NCBI GenBank assembly: GCA_019338205.1
Contig: GCA_019338205.1_4761.1
Strand: one strand, 5' to 3'
Length of the DNA: 64,000 nt
From: a phage
Shown here piece by piece: positions 19,321 to 21,510 of this stretch. A program made the translations under genes and the position numbers. How positions within the stretch are numbered: the first letter of the stretch is position 1; each line of letters begins with the position of its first letter. A model generated the notes under the pieces. It saw only the letters and a list, made by a program, of their open reading frames with translations, was not told the DNA's origin and did not search any database.

Positions 19321-19503
19321 ATGAAAAAGATTAATTGGTTAGATAACATAGGCGCGGTGTGCGCCTTTAACATCCTCGGATTGATAATGTTGCATTTTGA
19401 TGAGCGAGTTTCAAAATGTGAGGGTGCATTGATTCTCGGATCGGCTAGCATATTCATTATGCTGTATGCAATTGCTGTTGACTTAATCCGCGAGGATTGT
19501 TAA
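19321..19503 (+). CDS. small two-helix membrane protein
   Basis: ORF track; hydrophobic. Confidence 0.4.
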   Translation: MKKINWLDNIGAVCAFNILGLIMLHFDERVSKCEGALILGSASIFIMLYAIAVDLIREDC

Positions 19504-19504
19504 C

Positions 19505-19702
19505 ATGACGCTCAAGAATATGTTTTTTAACTTCGTAGGTGCTTCCATTCTTTCAGTGCTATATCTTGTGATTGTATGGATGGGCGACTATGAATTAACT
19601 AACGATGAAAATCTGACGGTGTTTACTGTCTTGACGATGATCATTTACACTGTCTTTCTTGTCTTGGATTTTATTGTGTTTCTTTACAAAACGGTGACTT
19701 GA
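19505..19702 (+). CDS. small two-helix membrane protein
   Basis: ORF track; hydrophobic. Confidence 0.4.
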   Translation: MTLKNMFFNFVGASILSVLYLVIVWMGDYELTNDENLTVFTVLTMIIYTVFLVLDFIVFLYKTVT

Positions 19703-19899
19703 TGACGATTAGTAAAAATGATATTGGTTTTGTTGCGGGTATCGCTAGCGTCTTTACTGTTGTTATTTTGCTAATGCTTTTACCCGGTGTATTCTCTGAC
19801 CAGATTGAATTGTATGTAGCTTTTATCTGTTGCATTTATACTTGGTTTGCAATGTTTGTGATTAGTCTAATTATGCAATTCGTCGTTAACAAATTTTAG
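19702..19899 (+). CDS. small two-helix membrane protein
   Basis: ORF track frame, ATG 19702 overlapping previous stop. Confidence 0.4.
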   Translation: MTISKNDIGFVAGIASVFTVVILLMLLPGVFSDQIELYVAFICCIYTWFAMFVISLIMQFVVNKF

Positions 19900-19920
19900 A
19901 TTTAATGTGAGGATTATATT

Positions 19921-20241
19921 ATGAGCAAACTGTTTGAAACTCCGCGTGAAATTCTGATTGACAAACTGAAAGAACGTGGTTTTAAAATTAAAGATGCAAC
20001 CAAATACAGCCGAATTGATGAAATTAAGTTGCATTCTCTTGATGAACTGGTAGAATATGTTGCGGCGGTTGCTGATCCGCAGTTTGATGTGATTGTAGGT
20101 GATGTTGAATATCTCGATAATGTATATTCATTCTTCACTTATGGTAAAATTGTGTCTGTGAAAATTTCATTCTGTGAAAATGTGGAGGTGCTTGCTAGTG
20201 AACCAGAAAAACCAACTGACAACGGTCCTTCGGCAGCGTAA
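19921..20241 (+). CDS. hypothetical protein (106 aa)
   Basis: ORF track; SD GAGGAT. Confidence 0.45.
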   Translation: MSKLFETPREILIDKLKERGFKIKDATKYSRIDEIKLHSLDELVEYVAAVADPQFDVIVGDVEYLDNVYSFFTYGKIVSVKISFCENVEVLASEPEKPTDNGPSAA

Positions 20242-20512
20242 CAAGGAAGACCGTCTGATTTATGCGCTGGCGGTTATCCTTGAAAAAGAATTACCGGATC
20301 TTGAGGTAGTTTTTACTGACCGACCAGTAGGCCAACGTTACGGCGGATATGATAGCCTAGTTTATCCATCATATAGCCTTGAAATGTGGGTGGAAGATTT
20401 TAAAAACTTGGCTGATACATCTAAACCGCTTTATTTGTGGGATGTTGAGTATAATTGCGATCCTAACTGGCCTGGCATTAATGTTTATGCGTCTATGACT
20501 TTAAAGGTGTGA
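20174..20512 (+). CDS. hypothetical protein (start uncertain)
   Basis: ORF track; overlaps previous ORF by 68 nt. Confidence 0.35.
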   Translation: MKMWRCLLVNQKNQLTTVLRQRNKEDRLIYALAVILEKELPDLEVVFTDRPVGQRYGGYDSLVYPSYSLEMWVEDFKNLADTSKPLYLWDVEYNCDPNWPGINVYASMTLKV

Positions 20513-20514
20513 TA

Positions 20515-20673
20515 ATGGTTGAACAAATGTTAACTTCAATGGTAATGGCTTTCTGTATGGTTGTTGTTATGATTGCAATGATCCCTAAAGAGAGAATGAA
20601 TCTTCTTGTAGCTGTCTGTATGGGCGTTGTTTGTGGATGGTTTGGGATCGCGCTAGAAGAAGCTCTGCGTTGA
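20515..20673 (+). CDS. small membrane protein (52 aa)
   Basis: ATG 20515 after previous stop; Met/Val-rich hydrophobic; below ORF-track cut-off. Confidence 0.35.
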   Translation: MVEQMLTSMVMAFCMVVVMIAMIPKERMNLLVAVCMGVVCGWFGIALEEALR

Positions 20674-20734
20674 TTAACAAAGCGGGTAGTACATTCCACT
20701 ACCCGCACTAATTTATCTCGCTGGAGGGCTTTCT

Positions 20735-20923
20735 ATGGAGTTTTGTCTATGGTTGCTTATAGTATGCTTTGTAATGGGTTTATGCTTCTATACTGGCGTA
20801 TTCTGTTTTGTCGCCTGGATAGACGGCGGATTCTCTAATATCATTTTGCTTGCCGGATCAATTGCCTCGTTTCTGTTGATATGGCTTTTTTCTTATTTGT
20901 TTGGTGAATGGGATTTATTATGA
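20735..20923 (+). CDS. small two-helix membrane protein
   Basis: ORF track; SD GGAGGG. Confidence 0.45.
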   Translation: MEFCLWLLIVCFVMGLCFYTGVFCFVAWIDGGFSNIILLAGSIASFLLIWLFSYLFGEWDLL

Positions 20924-21099
20924 ACAAATATATGTTTTGGGCGACCCTTGCCTATGTTGTGATTGCGGTAGTATGGGGATTCTGTGTTATTGTCGCTTCT
21001 CTGATCTGGTGGGAATCACTTGGTGCGGGTTGTCTGATTAGCGGCGCATCATGTCTTATCACTGGCGTGATTGTTGGTTTTCTTGTGTCGGAGGATTGA
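20908..21099 (+). CDS. small two-helix membrane protein
   Basis: ORF track. Confidence 0.4.
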   Translation: MGFIMNKYMFWATLAYVVIAVVWGFCVIVASLIWWESLGAGCLISGASCLITGVIVGFLVSED

Positions 21100-21101
21100 C
21101 A

Positions 21102-21317
21102 ATGGTTTTCTTCGGTCTTATTATAATGGTGCTTAATGTCATTTGTGGCGTTGCTATGTTAGCTATGGCCTTTACTGTTCCTATGTCTGTTGACAGCGCC
21201 GCGTCAGTAGGTGTGTTGGGAATTGTAAACCTGTTTACTGCCATAGCATGTTGGATCACCGGACGCGATGAGGTAATGTATTACTTTTATAAACGTAAAC
21301 AGAGAAAAGGAAAATAA
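21102..21317 (+). CDS. small two-helix membrane protein with basic tail
   Basis: ATG 21102 with SD GGAGGA. Confidence 0.45.
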   Translation: MVFFGLIIMVLNVICGVAMLAMAFTVPMSVDSAASVGVLGIVNLFTAIACWITGRDEVMYYFYKRKQRKGK

Positions 21318-21318
21318 T

Positions 21319-21510
21319 ATGAGATTTGCATTTGGTTTTACCGTGATGTTGATTATTGCTCTGAGTATGTGTACCGGAATGCTTGTATTTGGTCTTGCAA
21401 ACGGGTTTAGCATTTATAATAATCAGTGGGTTGATTGGGGAATGGTTGTCGTTAATGCGATCCTGATTGGTGCTAATACAAGAACTCTATGCAGGATCGC
21501 CGGAATCTAA
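21319..21510 (+). CDS. small two-helix membrane protein
   Basis: ORF track. Confidence 0.4.
   Translation: MRFAFGFTVMLIIALSMCTGMLVFGLANGFSIYNNQWVDWGMVVVNAILIGANTRTLCRIAGI

What the first reader, a model, noticed from the sequence alone, without database searches (positions are those of the whole stretch)
19321..21510. Second array of eight small two-helix membrane proteins directly upstream of the endolysin
ORFs at 19321, 19505, 19702, 20515, 20735, 20908, 21102 and 21319 (52-72 aa) are all strongly hydrophobic with two segments, and end 28 nt before the M15 peptidase endolysin gene. One or more could be holin/antiholin or pinholin components; the rest may be immunity-type proteins.
Basis: partly seen in the sequence, partly recalled or inferred. 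Interest (0 to 1): 0.5.

Follow-up and report, generated by a model that had tools for sequence, protein, structure and literature searches.

The report
Early small membrane genes beside endolysin
Eight real but already-catalogued genes for tiny two-helix membrane proteins sit upstream of the endolysin of an RB49-like (Krischvirus) T4-type phage; they appear to be early accessory genes of unknown function rather than the phage's lysis machinery, which is encoded elsewhere.

Summary
The window is a Krischvirus (RB49-like) genome, 99.5% identical to Shigella phage Sf20. The eight ORFs exist as described: 52-71 aa, strongly hydrophobic, two predicted helices, ending 28 nt before the M15 endolysin. 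They are real genes: good ribosome sites, start/stop coupling, pN/pS 0.16-0.59 against about 1 in a shifted frame, and intact in most of 15 compared loci. They correspond to RB49ORF103c-112c. Two-helix TMHMM predictions for seven of them were published in 2006.

The holin/antiholin reading is not supported. The genus has a canonical T holin next to the tail-fibre genes. The canonical RI antiholin lies in this window (27954-28256) behind a perfect late promoter. The array sits behind a predicted strong early promoter-stem-loop cassette (18904-18964), in the hyperplastic region that also holds Acb1 and Dmd. No member matches a holin, antiholin or Imm family. None has relatives outside the genus, and they are not detectable paralogues.

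Best reading: early accessory inner-membrane proteins, possibly Imm-like exclusion or counter-defence factors. Their function is untested.

In passing: the invariant endolysin leader folds into a hairpin hiding its ribosome site, with a near-consensus late promoter in the 5' arm, as for T4 gene e.

The parts
18904..18964 (+). PeSL cassette: early sigma-70-type promoter (TTGACA 18915-18920, 17-nt spacer, CATAAT 18938-18943) with an embedded stem-loop (GGGTGTAT...ATACACCC). Predicted start of the transcription unit that holds the array.
   Evidence: Member of repeat families D1/D2. Promoter scan 11 of 12. Coincides with the published RB49 prediction Pe:57746, score 37.4. PeSL concept and reporter tests on other PeSLs: PMC2839356.
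18986..19312 (+). First gene of the unit: soluble 108-aa protein with an LPD25 domain (large polyvalent protein associated domain 25).
   Evidence: Pfam PF18840, E = 3e-14. 97-100% conserved across loci.
19321..19503 (+). A1 (RB49ORF112c type), 60 aa, two-helix membrane protein.
   Evidence: (phrog_16425, unknown function). pN/pS 0.32.
19505..19702 (+). A2 (RB49ORF111c type), 65 aa, two helices with an invariant acidic loop ELTNDENLTVF. No orthologue was detected in five of 15 compared loci (JSE, SSG23 and Makalu among the phage genomes). Frameshifted (T6 to T5) in W115 and JK32.
   Evidence: pN/pS 0.34.
19702..19899 (+). A3 (RB49ORF110c type), 65 aa, two helices. Replaced in JSE-type genomes by an allele only about 33% identical at the protein level.
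   Evidence: (allele pair significant against shuffles).
19921..20241 (+). S1, soluble 106-aa ORF that interrupts the array.
   Evidence: pN/pS 0.06. phrog_16584, unknown function.
20198..20512 (+). S2, soluble 104-aa ORF (GTG start) that interrupts the array.
   Evidence: pN/pS 0.04.
20515..20673 (+). A4 (RB49ORF107c type), 52 aa, two helices with a basic loop (PKERM), which suggests the opposite topology to the others. Several allele classes (67-100% identity).
20682..20706 (+). G+C-rich hairpin (GCGGGTAGT-loop-ACTACCCGC) between A4 and A5. Possible attenuator or RNA-stability element, with no promoter after it.
   Evidence: Stem conserved with a different loop in JK32, where it is part of a 266-bp tandem duplication.
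20735..20923 (+). A5 (RB49ORF106c type), 62 aa, two helices, no basic residue at all, strong GGAGGG ribosome site.
   Evidence: pN/pS 0.57. T6 to T5 frameshift in Cognac.
20920..21099 (+). A6 (RB49ORF105c type), 59 aa (start overlaps the A5 stop as ATGA). Second helix rich in Gly, Ser and Ala.
   Evidence: (profile covers residues 5-63 of the longer form).
21102..21317 (+). A7 (RB49ORF104c type), 71 aa, two helices plus a near-invariant basic tail WITGRDEVMYYFYKRKQRKGK. The most constrained member.
   Evidence: (pN/pS 0.05).
21319..21510 (+). A8 (RB49ORF103c type), 63 aa, a long first hydrophobic run and a shorter second one, with a largely conserved loop NGFSIYNN(Q/P)WVDWG.
   Evidence: pN/pS 0.16.
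21504..21549 (+). Endolysin leader: a hairpin that pairs the upstream arm (containing TCTAAATA at 21506-21513, one mismatch from the T4 late promoter TATAAATA) with the ribosome site and AUG of the endolysin gene.
   Evidence: Leader (about 21503-21536) identical in the 14 loci where it could be located; the last few bases before the ATG and the first codons vary in the divergent clade. MFE -12.5 kcal/mol, z = -3.09. Late-promoter near-match. T4 gene e precedent: PMC3014915.
21539..21928 (+). Endolysin, an M15 L-alanyl-D-glutamate peptidase, 129 aa, soluble, at the genome position that gene e holds in T4.
23038..23062 (+). Intrinsic terminator that probably ends the transcription unit (after vs.8, a small ORF and vs.6).
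   Evidence: Equals the published RB49 terminator 53587-53607.
16790..17751 (+). The 'first array' B1-B5 (RB49ORF122c-118c type): five more small hydrophobic ORFs directly after dmd, in a separate early unit.
27914..28256 (+). Canonical late promoter TATAAATA (27914-27921) and the rI antiholin gene (27954-28256). These are the real lysis-timing components in this window.
   Evidence: PF24205, E = 3e-23. Published Pl:48756.

Best explanation
The eight ORFs are genuine, genus-restricted accessory genes of the hyperplastic region between gene 1 and regB of an RB49-like T4-type phage.

Inferred from sequence: they are transcribed in the first minutes of infection from the strong early promoter-stem-loop cassette at 18904-18964, as one polycistronic unit. 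That unit also carries an LPD25-domain gene, two soluble ORFs, the endolysin gene and vs.8/vs.6. The ORFs are translated through their own ribosome sites with start/stop coupling, and they insert into the inner membrane as about 60-residue helical hairpins. By charge distribution most have both ends in the cytoplasm and a short acidic periplasmic loop. A4 is inverted.

Shown here: they are real genes under purifying selection, and they are not part of the lysis machinery encoded by T, RI, the spanins and the endolysin.

Inferred: in early read-through RNA the endolysin reading frame is probably kept silent by a leader hairpin. Sharing a transcript with the endolysin therefore does not mean acting with it.

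Mechanism I commit to, by analogy only: each hairpin binds a membrane-embedded target through helix-helix contacts and its conserved loop or tail. T4 Imm works this way when it binds the tape-measure protein of a superinfecting phage. The result would be exclusion of competing phages or neutralisation of membrane-anchored host defence or abortive-infection effectors.
For: - Identity and synteny: the window is 99.5% identical to Sf20 and 97-99% to RB49. The order gene 1, 57A, Acb1/57B, dmd, [B array], LPD25, [A array], lys, vs.8, vs.6, regB parallels the T4 region from gene 1 through e to regB.
- Real genes: pN/pS is 0.05-0.51 among GenBank genomes against about 1 or more in the +1 frame for seven of the eight (A2's control was 0.62). 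It is 0.16-0.59 when a divergent metagenomic clade is added. Ribosome sites and overlapping start/stop codons are present.
- Membrane hairpins.
- Early unit: PeSL repeat family, promoter scan and published early-promoter and terminator predictions that bracket the unit. Other PeSLs were shown to act as promoters and terminators (PMC2839356). GGAG-type ribosome sites at U0, A5 and A7 resemble those that RegB cleaves in T4 early mRNAs.
- Lysis genes elsewhere.
- Accessory, fast-turnover character: no A2 orthologue detected in five of 15 loci, A3 allele replacement, several A4 allele classes and a local duplication in JK32. The membrane ORFs diverge much faster (67-90% identity) than the soluble neighbours (97-100%) in the divergent clade.
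- ORFan status: each has its own PHROG of unknown function, with nothing in Pfam, NCBIfam or PADLOC. An exhaustive phmmer search with A7 against 1.84 billion representatives found only its own family. tblastn found A7 in all 59 Krischvirus records and in no other phage. A8 and A3 have only relatives at least 74% identical.
- Counter-defence neighbourhood: Acb1 (E = 1.5e-51) and Dmd (E = 1.9e-14).
- Vacant niche: RB49 has no imm at the T4 position and no Imm-like sequence was found in the window.
- Imm mechanism: bioRxiv 10.64898/2026.03.06.709160.
Against: - No experiment or expression data exist for these ORFs; searches of the paper library with Krischvirus-based terms found no transcriptome or functional study.
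- Timing rests on promoter prediction. A hairpin at 20682-20706 could attenuate transcription into A5-A8. A perfect TATAAATA at 17743 lies 1.6 kb upstream of the array and 3.8 kb upstream of lys, so it could in principle give late read-through.
- A7 has the textbook look of a class II holin (two helices and a highly basic C-terminal tail). A5-A8 are tightly packed directly before the endolysin.
- The Imm or counter-defence role is pure analogy. There is no sequence similarity to Imm, and absence of Imm was checked only in part of the genome and in 40 of 1256 listed tblastn hits.
- pN/pS below 1 shows constraint, not an arms race.
Confidence: 0.6

Rival explanations
1. One or more of the ORFs, most plausibly A7 and/or A8 directly before the endolysin, is a holin, pinholin or antiholin that contributes to releasing or timing the M15 endolysin. 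It might have been brought in together with that horizontally acquired enzyme.
For: - Position 28 nt upstream of the endolysin, with A5-A8 packed and translationally coupled.
- Size and two helices match class II holins.
- A7 has a strongly basic tail (+7) and weak sub-threshold hits to holin families.
- A6 and A7 have small-residue helix faces.
- The endolysin is non-orthologous to T4 e, and its nearest relatives sit in classical holin-endolysin cassettes.
Against: - Canonical T holin, RI antiholin and spanins are present.
- There is no similarity to the phiP27 holins next to the closest endolysin relative.
- There is no exact TATAAATA between the early promoter and the endolysin.
- The endolysin lacks a SAR or signal segment.
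- A second similar array lies next to dmd with no endolysin.
- Other T4-type genera with this endolysin family have soluble upstream ORFs.
- Holin-family scores are far below threshold.
Confidence: 0.08
2. The ORFs are early membrane proteins that reprogramme host physiology rather than mediate phage-phage or defence conflicts. Examples would be small regulators or inhibitors of host inner-membrane transporters, proteases or respiratory complexes, like bacterial small membrane proteins, or mild depolarising toxins that help shut off the host.
For: - The same structural and timing evidence as the best explanation.
- Bacterial small membrane proteins commonly act as modulators of larger membrane complexes (review PMC12648545, seen by title and abstract only).
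- Conserved loops and tails suggest specific partners.
Against: Genus restriction, allele replacement and gene loss fit conflict-type accessory genes better than conserved host-takeover functions. There is no direct evidence either way.
Confidence: 0.25
3. The ORFs are not functional genes. They are chance reading frames in a T-rich stretch, where T at second codon positions gives hydrophobic residues.
For: The stretch is T-rich on the + strand (AT skew -0.138 at 20001-22000). Some annotators skipped A5 or A8. Single-base frameshifts occur in A2 and A5 in three genomes.
Against: pN/pS is well below 1 in frame but about 1 or higher out of frame for seven of the eight (A2's control was 0.62). 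The frames stay open in a clade with 67-90% protein identity. Ribosome sites and coupled starts are present. The frameshifts are T6 to T5 homopolymer changes that may be sequencing errors.
Confidence: 0.03

Closest known systems
PeSL-associated ORFan cassettes of T4-type hyperplastic regions (RB49/phi1; Arbiol et al. 2010, PMC2839356). Specifically the annotated genes RB49ORF103c-112c.
   Same: Same genes at 97-99% DNA identity. They lie in a hyperplastic region behind a promoter-stem-loop cassette, have no database relatives, and show replacement, loss and duplication between close relatives.
   Different: Nothing essential. The published work does not discuss these particular ORFs or note their clustering as membrane proteins. 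Their helix predictions appear only in a supplementary table.
T4 Imm (superinfection immunity protein, 83 aa)
   Same: A small inner-membrane protein made by a T4-type phage. Imm acts by binding a membrane-inserting protein, the tape-measure protein gp29. No Imm homologue was found at the T4 locus in RB49 or in this window.
   Different: No sequence similarity and no Pfam match. Imm is modelled with four helices, whereas these have two. Function is untested here.
Class II holins and pinholins (for example the phage 21 S21 68 protein; features from general knowledge of the family)
   Same: About 60-70 residues with two transmembrane helices. A7 also has a basic cytoplasmic tail. They lie next to an endolysin gene.
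   Different: They sit in a predicted early unit, not a late one. No family match reaches threshold. The endolysin is soluble, not SAR-type. The phage has its own T holin and RI antiholin.
Uncharacterised small membrane ORFs in the syntenic T4 region (e.3, e.4, trna.4) and runs of small membrane or signal-peptide ORFs in other T4-type phages (Aeh1, RB43)
   Same: Same genome neighbourhood and the same kind of product.
   Different: No sequence relationship is known (each of the eight has its own PHROG; no direct comparison with these ORFs was run). Krischvirus has an unusually dense set, 13 within 4.7 kb.
Translational masking of T4 gene e (lysozyme) in early transcripts (McPheeters et al. 1986, as reviewed in PMC3014915)
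   Same: The leader of the Krischvirus endolysin folds so that the ribosome site and AUG are paired. A late-promoter-like octamer lies in the 5' arm.
   Different: The enzyme is non-orthologous (an M15 peptidase). The octamer is TCTAAATA, not TATAAATA. The review lists RB49 and phi-1 as lacking gene e, so they were not examined. There is no covariation because the sequence is invariant.

Membership tests
Holins, class II / pinholin type | Small protein with two transmembrane helices | tested here: met
   Hydropathy and uncharged-run analysis. Published TMHMM for seven orthologues. AlphaFold2 for A7.
Holins, class II / pinholin type | Significant match to a described holin family | tested here: not met
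   Pfam best is A7 against Phage_holin_3_5 at 15.0 bits against a cut-off of 27 (E = 0.029). All eight fall in PHROGs of unknown function. NCBIfam gives nothing.
Holins, class II / pinholin type | Late expression as part of a lysis cassette | tested here: not met
   The unit starts at an early PeSL promoter. There is no exact TATAAATA between 17751 and 27913. This is a sequence prediction only, with no RNA data.
Holins, class II / pinholin type | Hydrophilic, highly charged C-terminal cytoplasmic tail | tested here: inconclusive
   Met by A7 (+7/-2). The other seven have tails of 2-11 residues with 0-2 basic charges.
Holins, class II / pinholin type | For a pinholin, a partner endolysin with a signal-anchor-release (SAR) domain | tested here: not met
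   The endolysin has no hydrophobic segment and GRAVY -0.64.
Holins, class II / pinholin type | Forms lethal membrane lesions that release or activate the endolysin | not testable with these tools
   Needs co-expression and lysis assays.
T4 T holin (Pfam PF11031) and RI antiholin (PF24205) | Sequence membership | tested here: not met
   None of the eight matches. The true T is in Cognac at 154407-155063 (E = 4.5e-61). The true RI is in the window at 27954-28256 (E = 3e-23).
T4 Imm superinfection immunity protein | Sequence similarity to Imm | tested here: not met
   No Imm-family match in the Pfam scans of A1-A8 and B1-B5. tblastn of T4 Imm against the window and held Krischvirus loci finds nothing meaningful.
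T4 Imm superinfection immunity protein | Small inner-membrane protein made early in infection | tested here: met
   By prediction only.
T4 Imm superinfection immunity protein | Blocks genome entry of superinfecting phage by binding its tape-measure protein | not testable with these tools
   Mechanism known for Imm. It needs plating and binding assays here.
PeSL-associated ORFan cassettes of T4-type hyperplastic regions | Located in a hyperplastic region between conserved core genes | tested here: met
   Between gene 1 and regB, syntenic with the T4 e region.
PeSL-associated ORFan cassettes of T4-type hyperplastic regions | Promoter-stem-loop cassette at the boundary | tested here: met
   18904-18964 upstream and the next cassette at 24249-24316. 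Published promoter calls. There is no PeSL between individual array genes, only a lone hairpin at 20682-20706.
PeSL-associated ORFan cassettes of T4-type hyperplastic regions | No homologues outside close relatives, with presence/absence or replacement among close relatives | tested here: met
   (ORFan status). (A2 loss, A3 replacement, A4 allele classes, JK32 duplication).

The most novel reading that the evidence does not exclude
The two arrays (13 unrelated two-helix proteins within 4.7 kb, beside Acb1 and Dmd) may form a diversified 'membrane shield' island. In this reading each hairpin is a specific immunity-type blocker of a different membrane-inserting threat: tape-measure or ejection proteins of competing phages, colicin-like pores, or membrane effectors of abortive-infection systems. 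Together they would replace the single Imm protein for which no homologue was found here. A smaller novel reading is that the M15 endolysin has independently acquired the T4 gene-e style masking hairpin with a variant late promoter (TCTAAATA).
Probability: 0.15. Interest if true: 0.6.

Novelty: already known. Interest (0 to 1): 0.25.

Why it matters
For genome annotation, this is a caution against calling small hydrophobic ORFs next to an endolysin 'holins' in T4-type phages. In these phages the lysis genes are scattered, and the endolysin sits in an early-transcribed hyperplastic region.

For biology, the ORFs are a compact set of conserved, selected and wholly uncharacterised early membrane proteins in a therapeutic-phage genus, next to known counter-defence genes. 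That makes them reasonable candidates for screens for superinfection exclusion or anti-defence activity. Nothing found here shows such a function.

Tried and rejected
1. One search with all eight proteins concatenated against the 5.8-billion-protein collection returned nothing, not even the known orthologues. Short hydrophobic words probably saturated the candidate step. The search was wasted and is not evidence.
2. Paralogy among the 12 array proteins tested (A1-A8 and B1, B3, B4, B5): blastp, profile-profile hhalign on allele alignments (top probability 15%) and shuffle tests gave nothing that survives multiple testing. The resemblance between the A7 and B3 C-terminal tails (RD..MY.F.K....GK) has p about 0.05, or 0.26 with segment-preserving shuffles, so I rejected it. 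A2 against A3 has p about 0.014 uncorrected, so a duplication is not established.
3. Co-acquisition of holins with the endolysin: the closest non-Krischvirus endolysin (phiP27, 63% identity) has two upstream holins with no similarity to A1-A8.
4. A conserved link between membrane ORFs and this endolysin family in other T4-type genera: absent in Pseudotevenvirus and Slopekvirus.
5. PADLOC, NCBIfam and Pfam scans gave no matches.
6. tRNA genes in the window: none.
7. Transcriptome or functional papers on Krischvirus: none found.
8. Absence of Imm across the whole Krischvirus genome could not be shown exhaustively. Only the T4-equivalent locus, the window and parts of RB49 and Cognac were checked, plus 40 of 1256 listed tblastn hits.
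Full report
**What the window is.** The stretch 19000-22000 is 99.5% identical to Shigella phage Sf20. It is 94-99% identical to 59 records, all of the genus Krischvirus (RB49-like, Straboviridae). No tRNA genes are present. From about 10.3 kb onward the genes run on the + strand (GC skew).

The local order follows, from annotation of relatives and Pfam scans of the window.
- gene 1, dNMP kinase (14498-15154)
- gp57A
- Acb1/57B (15444-15914, E = 1.5e-51)
- an ORF, then a 52-aa ORF
- Dmd (16639-16842, E = 1.9e-14)
- five small hydrophobic ORFs (B1-B5, 16790-17751)
- four small soluble ORFs
- an LPD25-domain ORF (18986-19312)
- the region in question
- the M15 endolysin (21539-21928)
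- vs.8, vs.6, nrdC.11 and regB

This parallels the T4 map from gene 1 through e to regB, with the endolysin at the place of gene e. The region is one of the hyperplastic regions described for T4-type phages (PMC2839356).

**Check of the observation.** All eight ORFs are there. Sizes are 52-71 aa and GRAVY is 0.85-1.67. Each has two hydrophobic peaks or two uncharged runs of 15-36 residues. A8 stops 28 nt before the endolysin ATG. Two corrections apply. A6 most likely starts at 20920, overlapping the A5 stop, rather than at 20908. The series is also interrupted by two soluble ORFs at 19921-20512.

Independent support comes from three sources. TMHMM predictions published in 2006 give two helices for RB49ORF103c, 104c, 106c, 107c, 110c, 111c and 112c, the orthologues of A8, A7, A5, A4, A3, A2 and A1 (PMC1524935 Additional file 2). 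The W115 annotation labels seven of them 'putative membrane protein'. AlphaFold2 on A7 alone gives two helices, 2-25 and 32-69, at moderate confidence (pLDDT 70).

The clustering is real. 13 of about 15 small + strand ORFs with a predicted helix in the window lie in 16.8-21.5 kb. 13 of the 20 novel RB49 ORFs with predicted helices are ORF103-124.

**Are they genes?** Yes.
- Ribosome sites precede them (strong GGAGGG, GGAGGA and AAGGA for A5, A7 and A8; weaker for A3 and A6), and several starts overlap or abut the previous stop.
- Across nine GenBank genomes, in-frame pN/pS is 0.05-0.51, while in the +1 frame it is about 1 or higher for seven of the eight (A2's control, 0.62, did not separate clearly).
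- A more divergent clade recovered from metagenomes, including contigs up to 174.8 kb, keeps the same gene order and open frames at 67-90% protein identity. A3 there is the divergent allele. Pooled pN/pS is 0.16-0.59.
- The soluble neighbours are far more conserved (97-100% identity, pN/pS 0.04-0.06). The membrane ORFs therefore evolve fast but under constraint.
- Conserved positions concentrate in loops and tails. Examples are A2 ELTNDENLTVF, A8 NGFSIYNN.WVDWG and the near-invariant A7 tail WITGRDEVMYYFYKRKQRKGK.

**Turnover.**
- No A2 orthologue was detected in five of 15 loci, including JSE, SSG23 and Makalu.
- A3 in JSE-type genomes is replaced by an allele with no detectable DNA similarity and about 33% protein identity.
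- A4 has several allele classes.
- JK32 has a 266-bp tandem duplication across A4, the hairpin and A5.
- One-base frameshifts in A2 (W115, JK32) and A5 (Cognac) are T6 to T5 changes and may be sequencing errors.

**Relatives.** Each ORF falls in its own PHROG of unknown function. Pfam, NCBIfam and PADLOC give nothing above threshold.
- A7 was run with phmmer against 1.84 billion cluster representatives. It found only its own family: one 79%-identical representative, one truncated chimera and one spurious hit.
- tblastn found A7 in all 59 Krischvirus records and in no other of 50,697 phage records at E up to 1.
- A8 and A3 have only relatives at least 74% identical among 5.8 billion proteins.

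The A and B array proteins compared (all but the 36-aa B2) are not detectable paralogues of one another.

**Transcription.** A repeated 60-70-nt element lies at 18904-18964. It has an AT-rich tract, TTGACA, a 17-nt spacer containing a stem-loop, and a -10 hexamer. Other copies are at 15947, 16388, 17942, 24249 and elsewhere. These are the promoter-early stem-loop cassettes (PeSLs), which were shown with reporter fusions to act as strong promoters and as terminators.

Published predictions for RB49 place early promoters at positions equivalent to window 18901-18951 (Pe:57746, score 37.4) and 24258-24308 (Pe:52389), with none between. They place a terminator at the equivalent of 23040-23060, which matches my scan. 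The array therefore belongs to one predicted early unit that also includes the endolysin. A G+C-rich hairpin at 20682-20706 may attenuate transcription midway. A promoter-like site at 21096-21124, inside the start of A7, is of unknown significance.

**Lysis genes.**
- Krischvirus Cognac encodes a 218-aa T holin beside the tail-fibre genes (PF11031, E = 4.5e-61).
- The window itself encodes the RI antiholin at 27954-28256 (PF24205, E = 3e-23). One of only three exact TATAAATA octamers in the window lies 33 nt upstream of it. That site is also the only published minus-strand late promoter of RB49 in this area.
- Spanins, holin and endolysin are listed for a Krischvirus in PMC11767321.
- The endolysin has no hydrophobic N-terminus, so it needs a large-hole holin such as T.

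The nearest endolysin relatives outside the genus (63% identity) are in temperate phages such as phiP27. There two holins precede the endolysin, and neither resembles A1-A8. In Pseudotevenvirus and Slopekvirus, which carry the same endolysin family at 46-48% identity, the upstream ORFs are soluble. Adjacency of the array to the endolysin is therefore specific to this genus. It does not indicate a lysis cassette.

**Endolysin leader (noticed in passing).** The leader sequence between A8 and the endolysin (about 21503-21536) is identical in the 14 loci where it could be located, including the divergent clade whose endolysin differs by 13% in protein sequence; only the last few bases before the ATG differ there. 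It folds into a hairpin of -12.5 kcal/mol (z = -3.09; 2 of 200 shuffles fold as well). The hairpin pairs 21504-21522 with 21530-21549 and so buries part of the ribosome site and the AUG.

The 5' arm contains TCTAAATA, one mismatch from the T4 late promoter. A transcript starting a few bases downstream would lack that arm and fold weakly (-3.8 kcal/mol). This is the logic established for T4 gene e. The review that compiled such leaders lists RB49 and phi-1 as having no gene e, so they were not examined (PMC3014915).

If this is correct, early read-through RNA carries the endolysin frame in a silent form. That further separates the array from lysis. It remains a prediction. There is no covariation because the sequence never varies, and whether TCTAAATA works as a late promoter is unknown.

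**What the ORFs most likely do.**
- Shown: they are real, selected, genus-restricted genes for small proteins with two hydrophobic helices. They are separate from the canonical lysis genes.
- Inferred from sequence: early expression. Most have both ends in the cytoplasm with an acidic periplasmic loop, A4 is inverted, and A5 has no basic residue.
- Inferred by analogy: action through helix-helix binding to membrane-embedded targets.

The best-documented T4 precedent is Imm, a small inner-membrane protein that binds the tape-measure protein and blocks genome translocation. RB49 has no imm at the T4 locus, and no Imm-like sequence occurs in the window or in the other Krischvirus stretches I held. 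Imm homologues occur in 1256 other phage records. The neighbourhood holds two known counter-defence genes, Acb1 and Dmd. I therefore favour an exclusion or counter-defence role, with low confidence in the specific role. A host-physiology role is a serious rival. A lysis role is unlikely, and non-coding is essentially excluded.

**Comparison and novelty.** These are the annotated genes RB49ORF103c-112c and their orthologues. Their helix predictions have been public since 2006. Runs of small membrane or signal-peptide ORFs are also seen in T4 (e.3, e.4, trna.4) and in Aeh1 and RB43. The finding is a correct description of known, uncharacterised genes, and its main functional suggestion is not supported. 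Interest is low to moderate. The set is a sensible target list for exclusion or anti-defence screens, and the endolysin leader hairpin is a small new observation worth testing.

Noticed in passing
window 21504-21549: The endolysin leader is identical in the 14 loci where it was located and folds into a hairpin (-12.5 kcal/mol, z = -3.09) that pairs the ribosome site and AUG. Its 5' arm contains TCTAAATA, one mismatch from the T4 late promoter. This is the same logic as translational masking of T4 gene e, here on a non-orthologous M15 endolysin that earlier surveys skipped because RB49 'has no gene e'.
   Followed up: partly
window 16790-17751 (B1-B5) and 16471-16629: A further run of five small hydrophobic ORFs lies directly after dmd in a separate early unit, plus a 52-aa ORF before dmd that others annotate as a membrane protein. 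B3 and B5 have basic C-terminal tails like A7. All are under purifying selection (pN/pS 0.12-0.53).
   Followed up: partly
window 15947-16007, 16388-16455, 17930-18002, 18892-18964, 24249-24321, 28891-28957, 30133-30202, 33829-33889, 34494-34561, 37719-37786, 38630-38697: This is a family of 60-70-nt promoter-plus-stem-loop repeats (PeSLs) that punctuate the early region. Several coincide with published RB49 early-promoter predictions.
   Followed up: partly
window 15444-15914 and 16639-16842: Two known counter-defence genes lie just upstream of the arrays. They are Acb1, the anti-CBASS nuclease and T4 57B homologue (E = 1.5e-51), and Dmd, the antitoxin against RnlA/LsoA (E = 1.9e-14).
   Followed up: yes
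window 18986-19312: The first gene of the array's transcription unit carries an LPD25 domain (large polyvalent protein associated domain 25, E = 3e-14). It is nearly invariant across the genus.
   Followed up: no
window 27914-28256: The canonical rI antiholin gene (PF24205) lies behind a perfect TATAAATA late promoter 33 nt upstream, inside an otherwise early-transcribed region.
   Followed up: yes
L006 (Shigella phage JK32) 4373-5068: A 266-bp tandem duplication covers the 3' end of A4, the intergenic hairpin and the 5' part of A5. It creates a chimeric extra ORF. It could be a real rearrangement or an assembly artefact.
   Followed up: no
L008 (JSE) 5476-6051, L010 (G2248) 5675-6250, L006 (JK32) 5940-6515: Some genomes carry an HNH/AP2-type homing-endonuclease gene inserted right after the endolysin gene. 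In those genomes the last ~40 nt of the endolysin gene do not align with the window's allele (91% protein identity overall), which suggests co-conversion.
   Followed up: no
GenBank records PQ368571, OR352938, MK573636, OR525698, MT764208, OM803178 (hits): The 71-aa A7 orthologue is labelled 'tail length tape-measure protein' in several automated annotations. This is clearly a mislabel.
   Followed up: no
window 17743-17750 and 21096-21124: An exact TATAAATA sits at the very end of B5 with no obvious late gene after it. A near-consensus sigma-70 promoter (TTGACA, 17-nt spacer, TATTAT) overlaps the start of A7. The function of both is unknown.
   Followed up: no
window 32793-33085 and 31916-32449: Two pairs of direct repeats, 71-81% identical and 77-89 nt long, are spaced 216 and 445 nt apart. 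They begin at ATG codons behind a shared GAGGATTATATTATG ribosome-site motif. This suggests tandemly duplicated small genes elsewhere in the early region.
   Followed up: no
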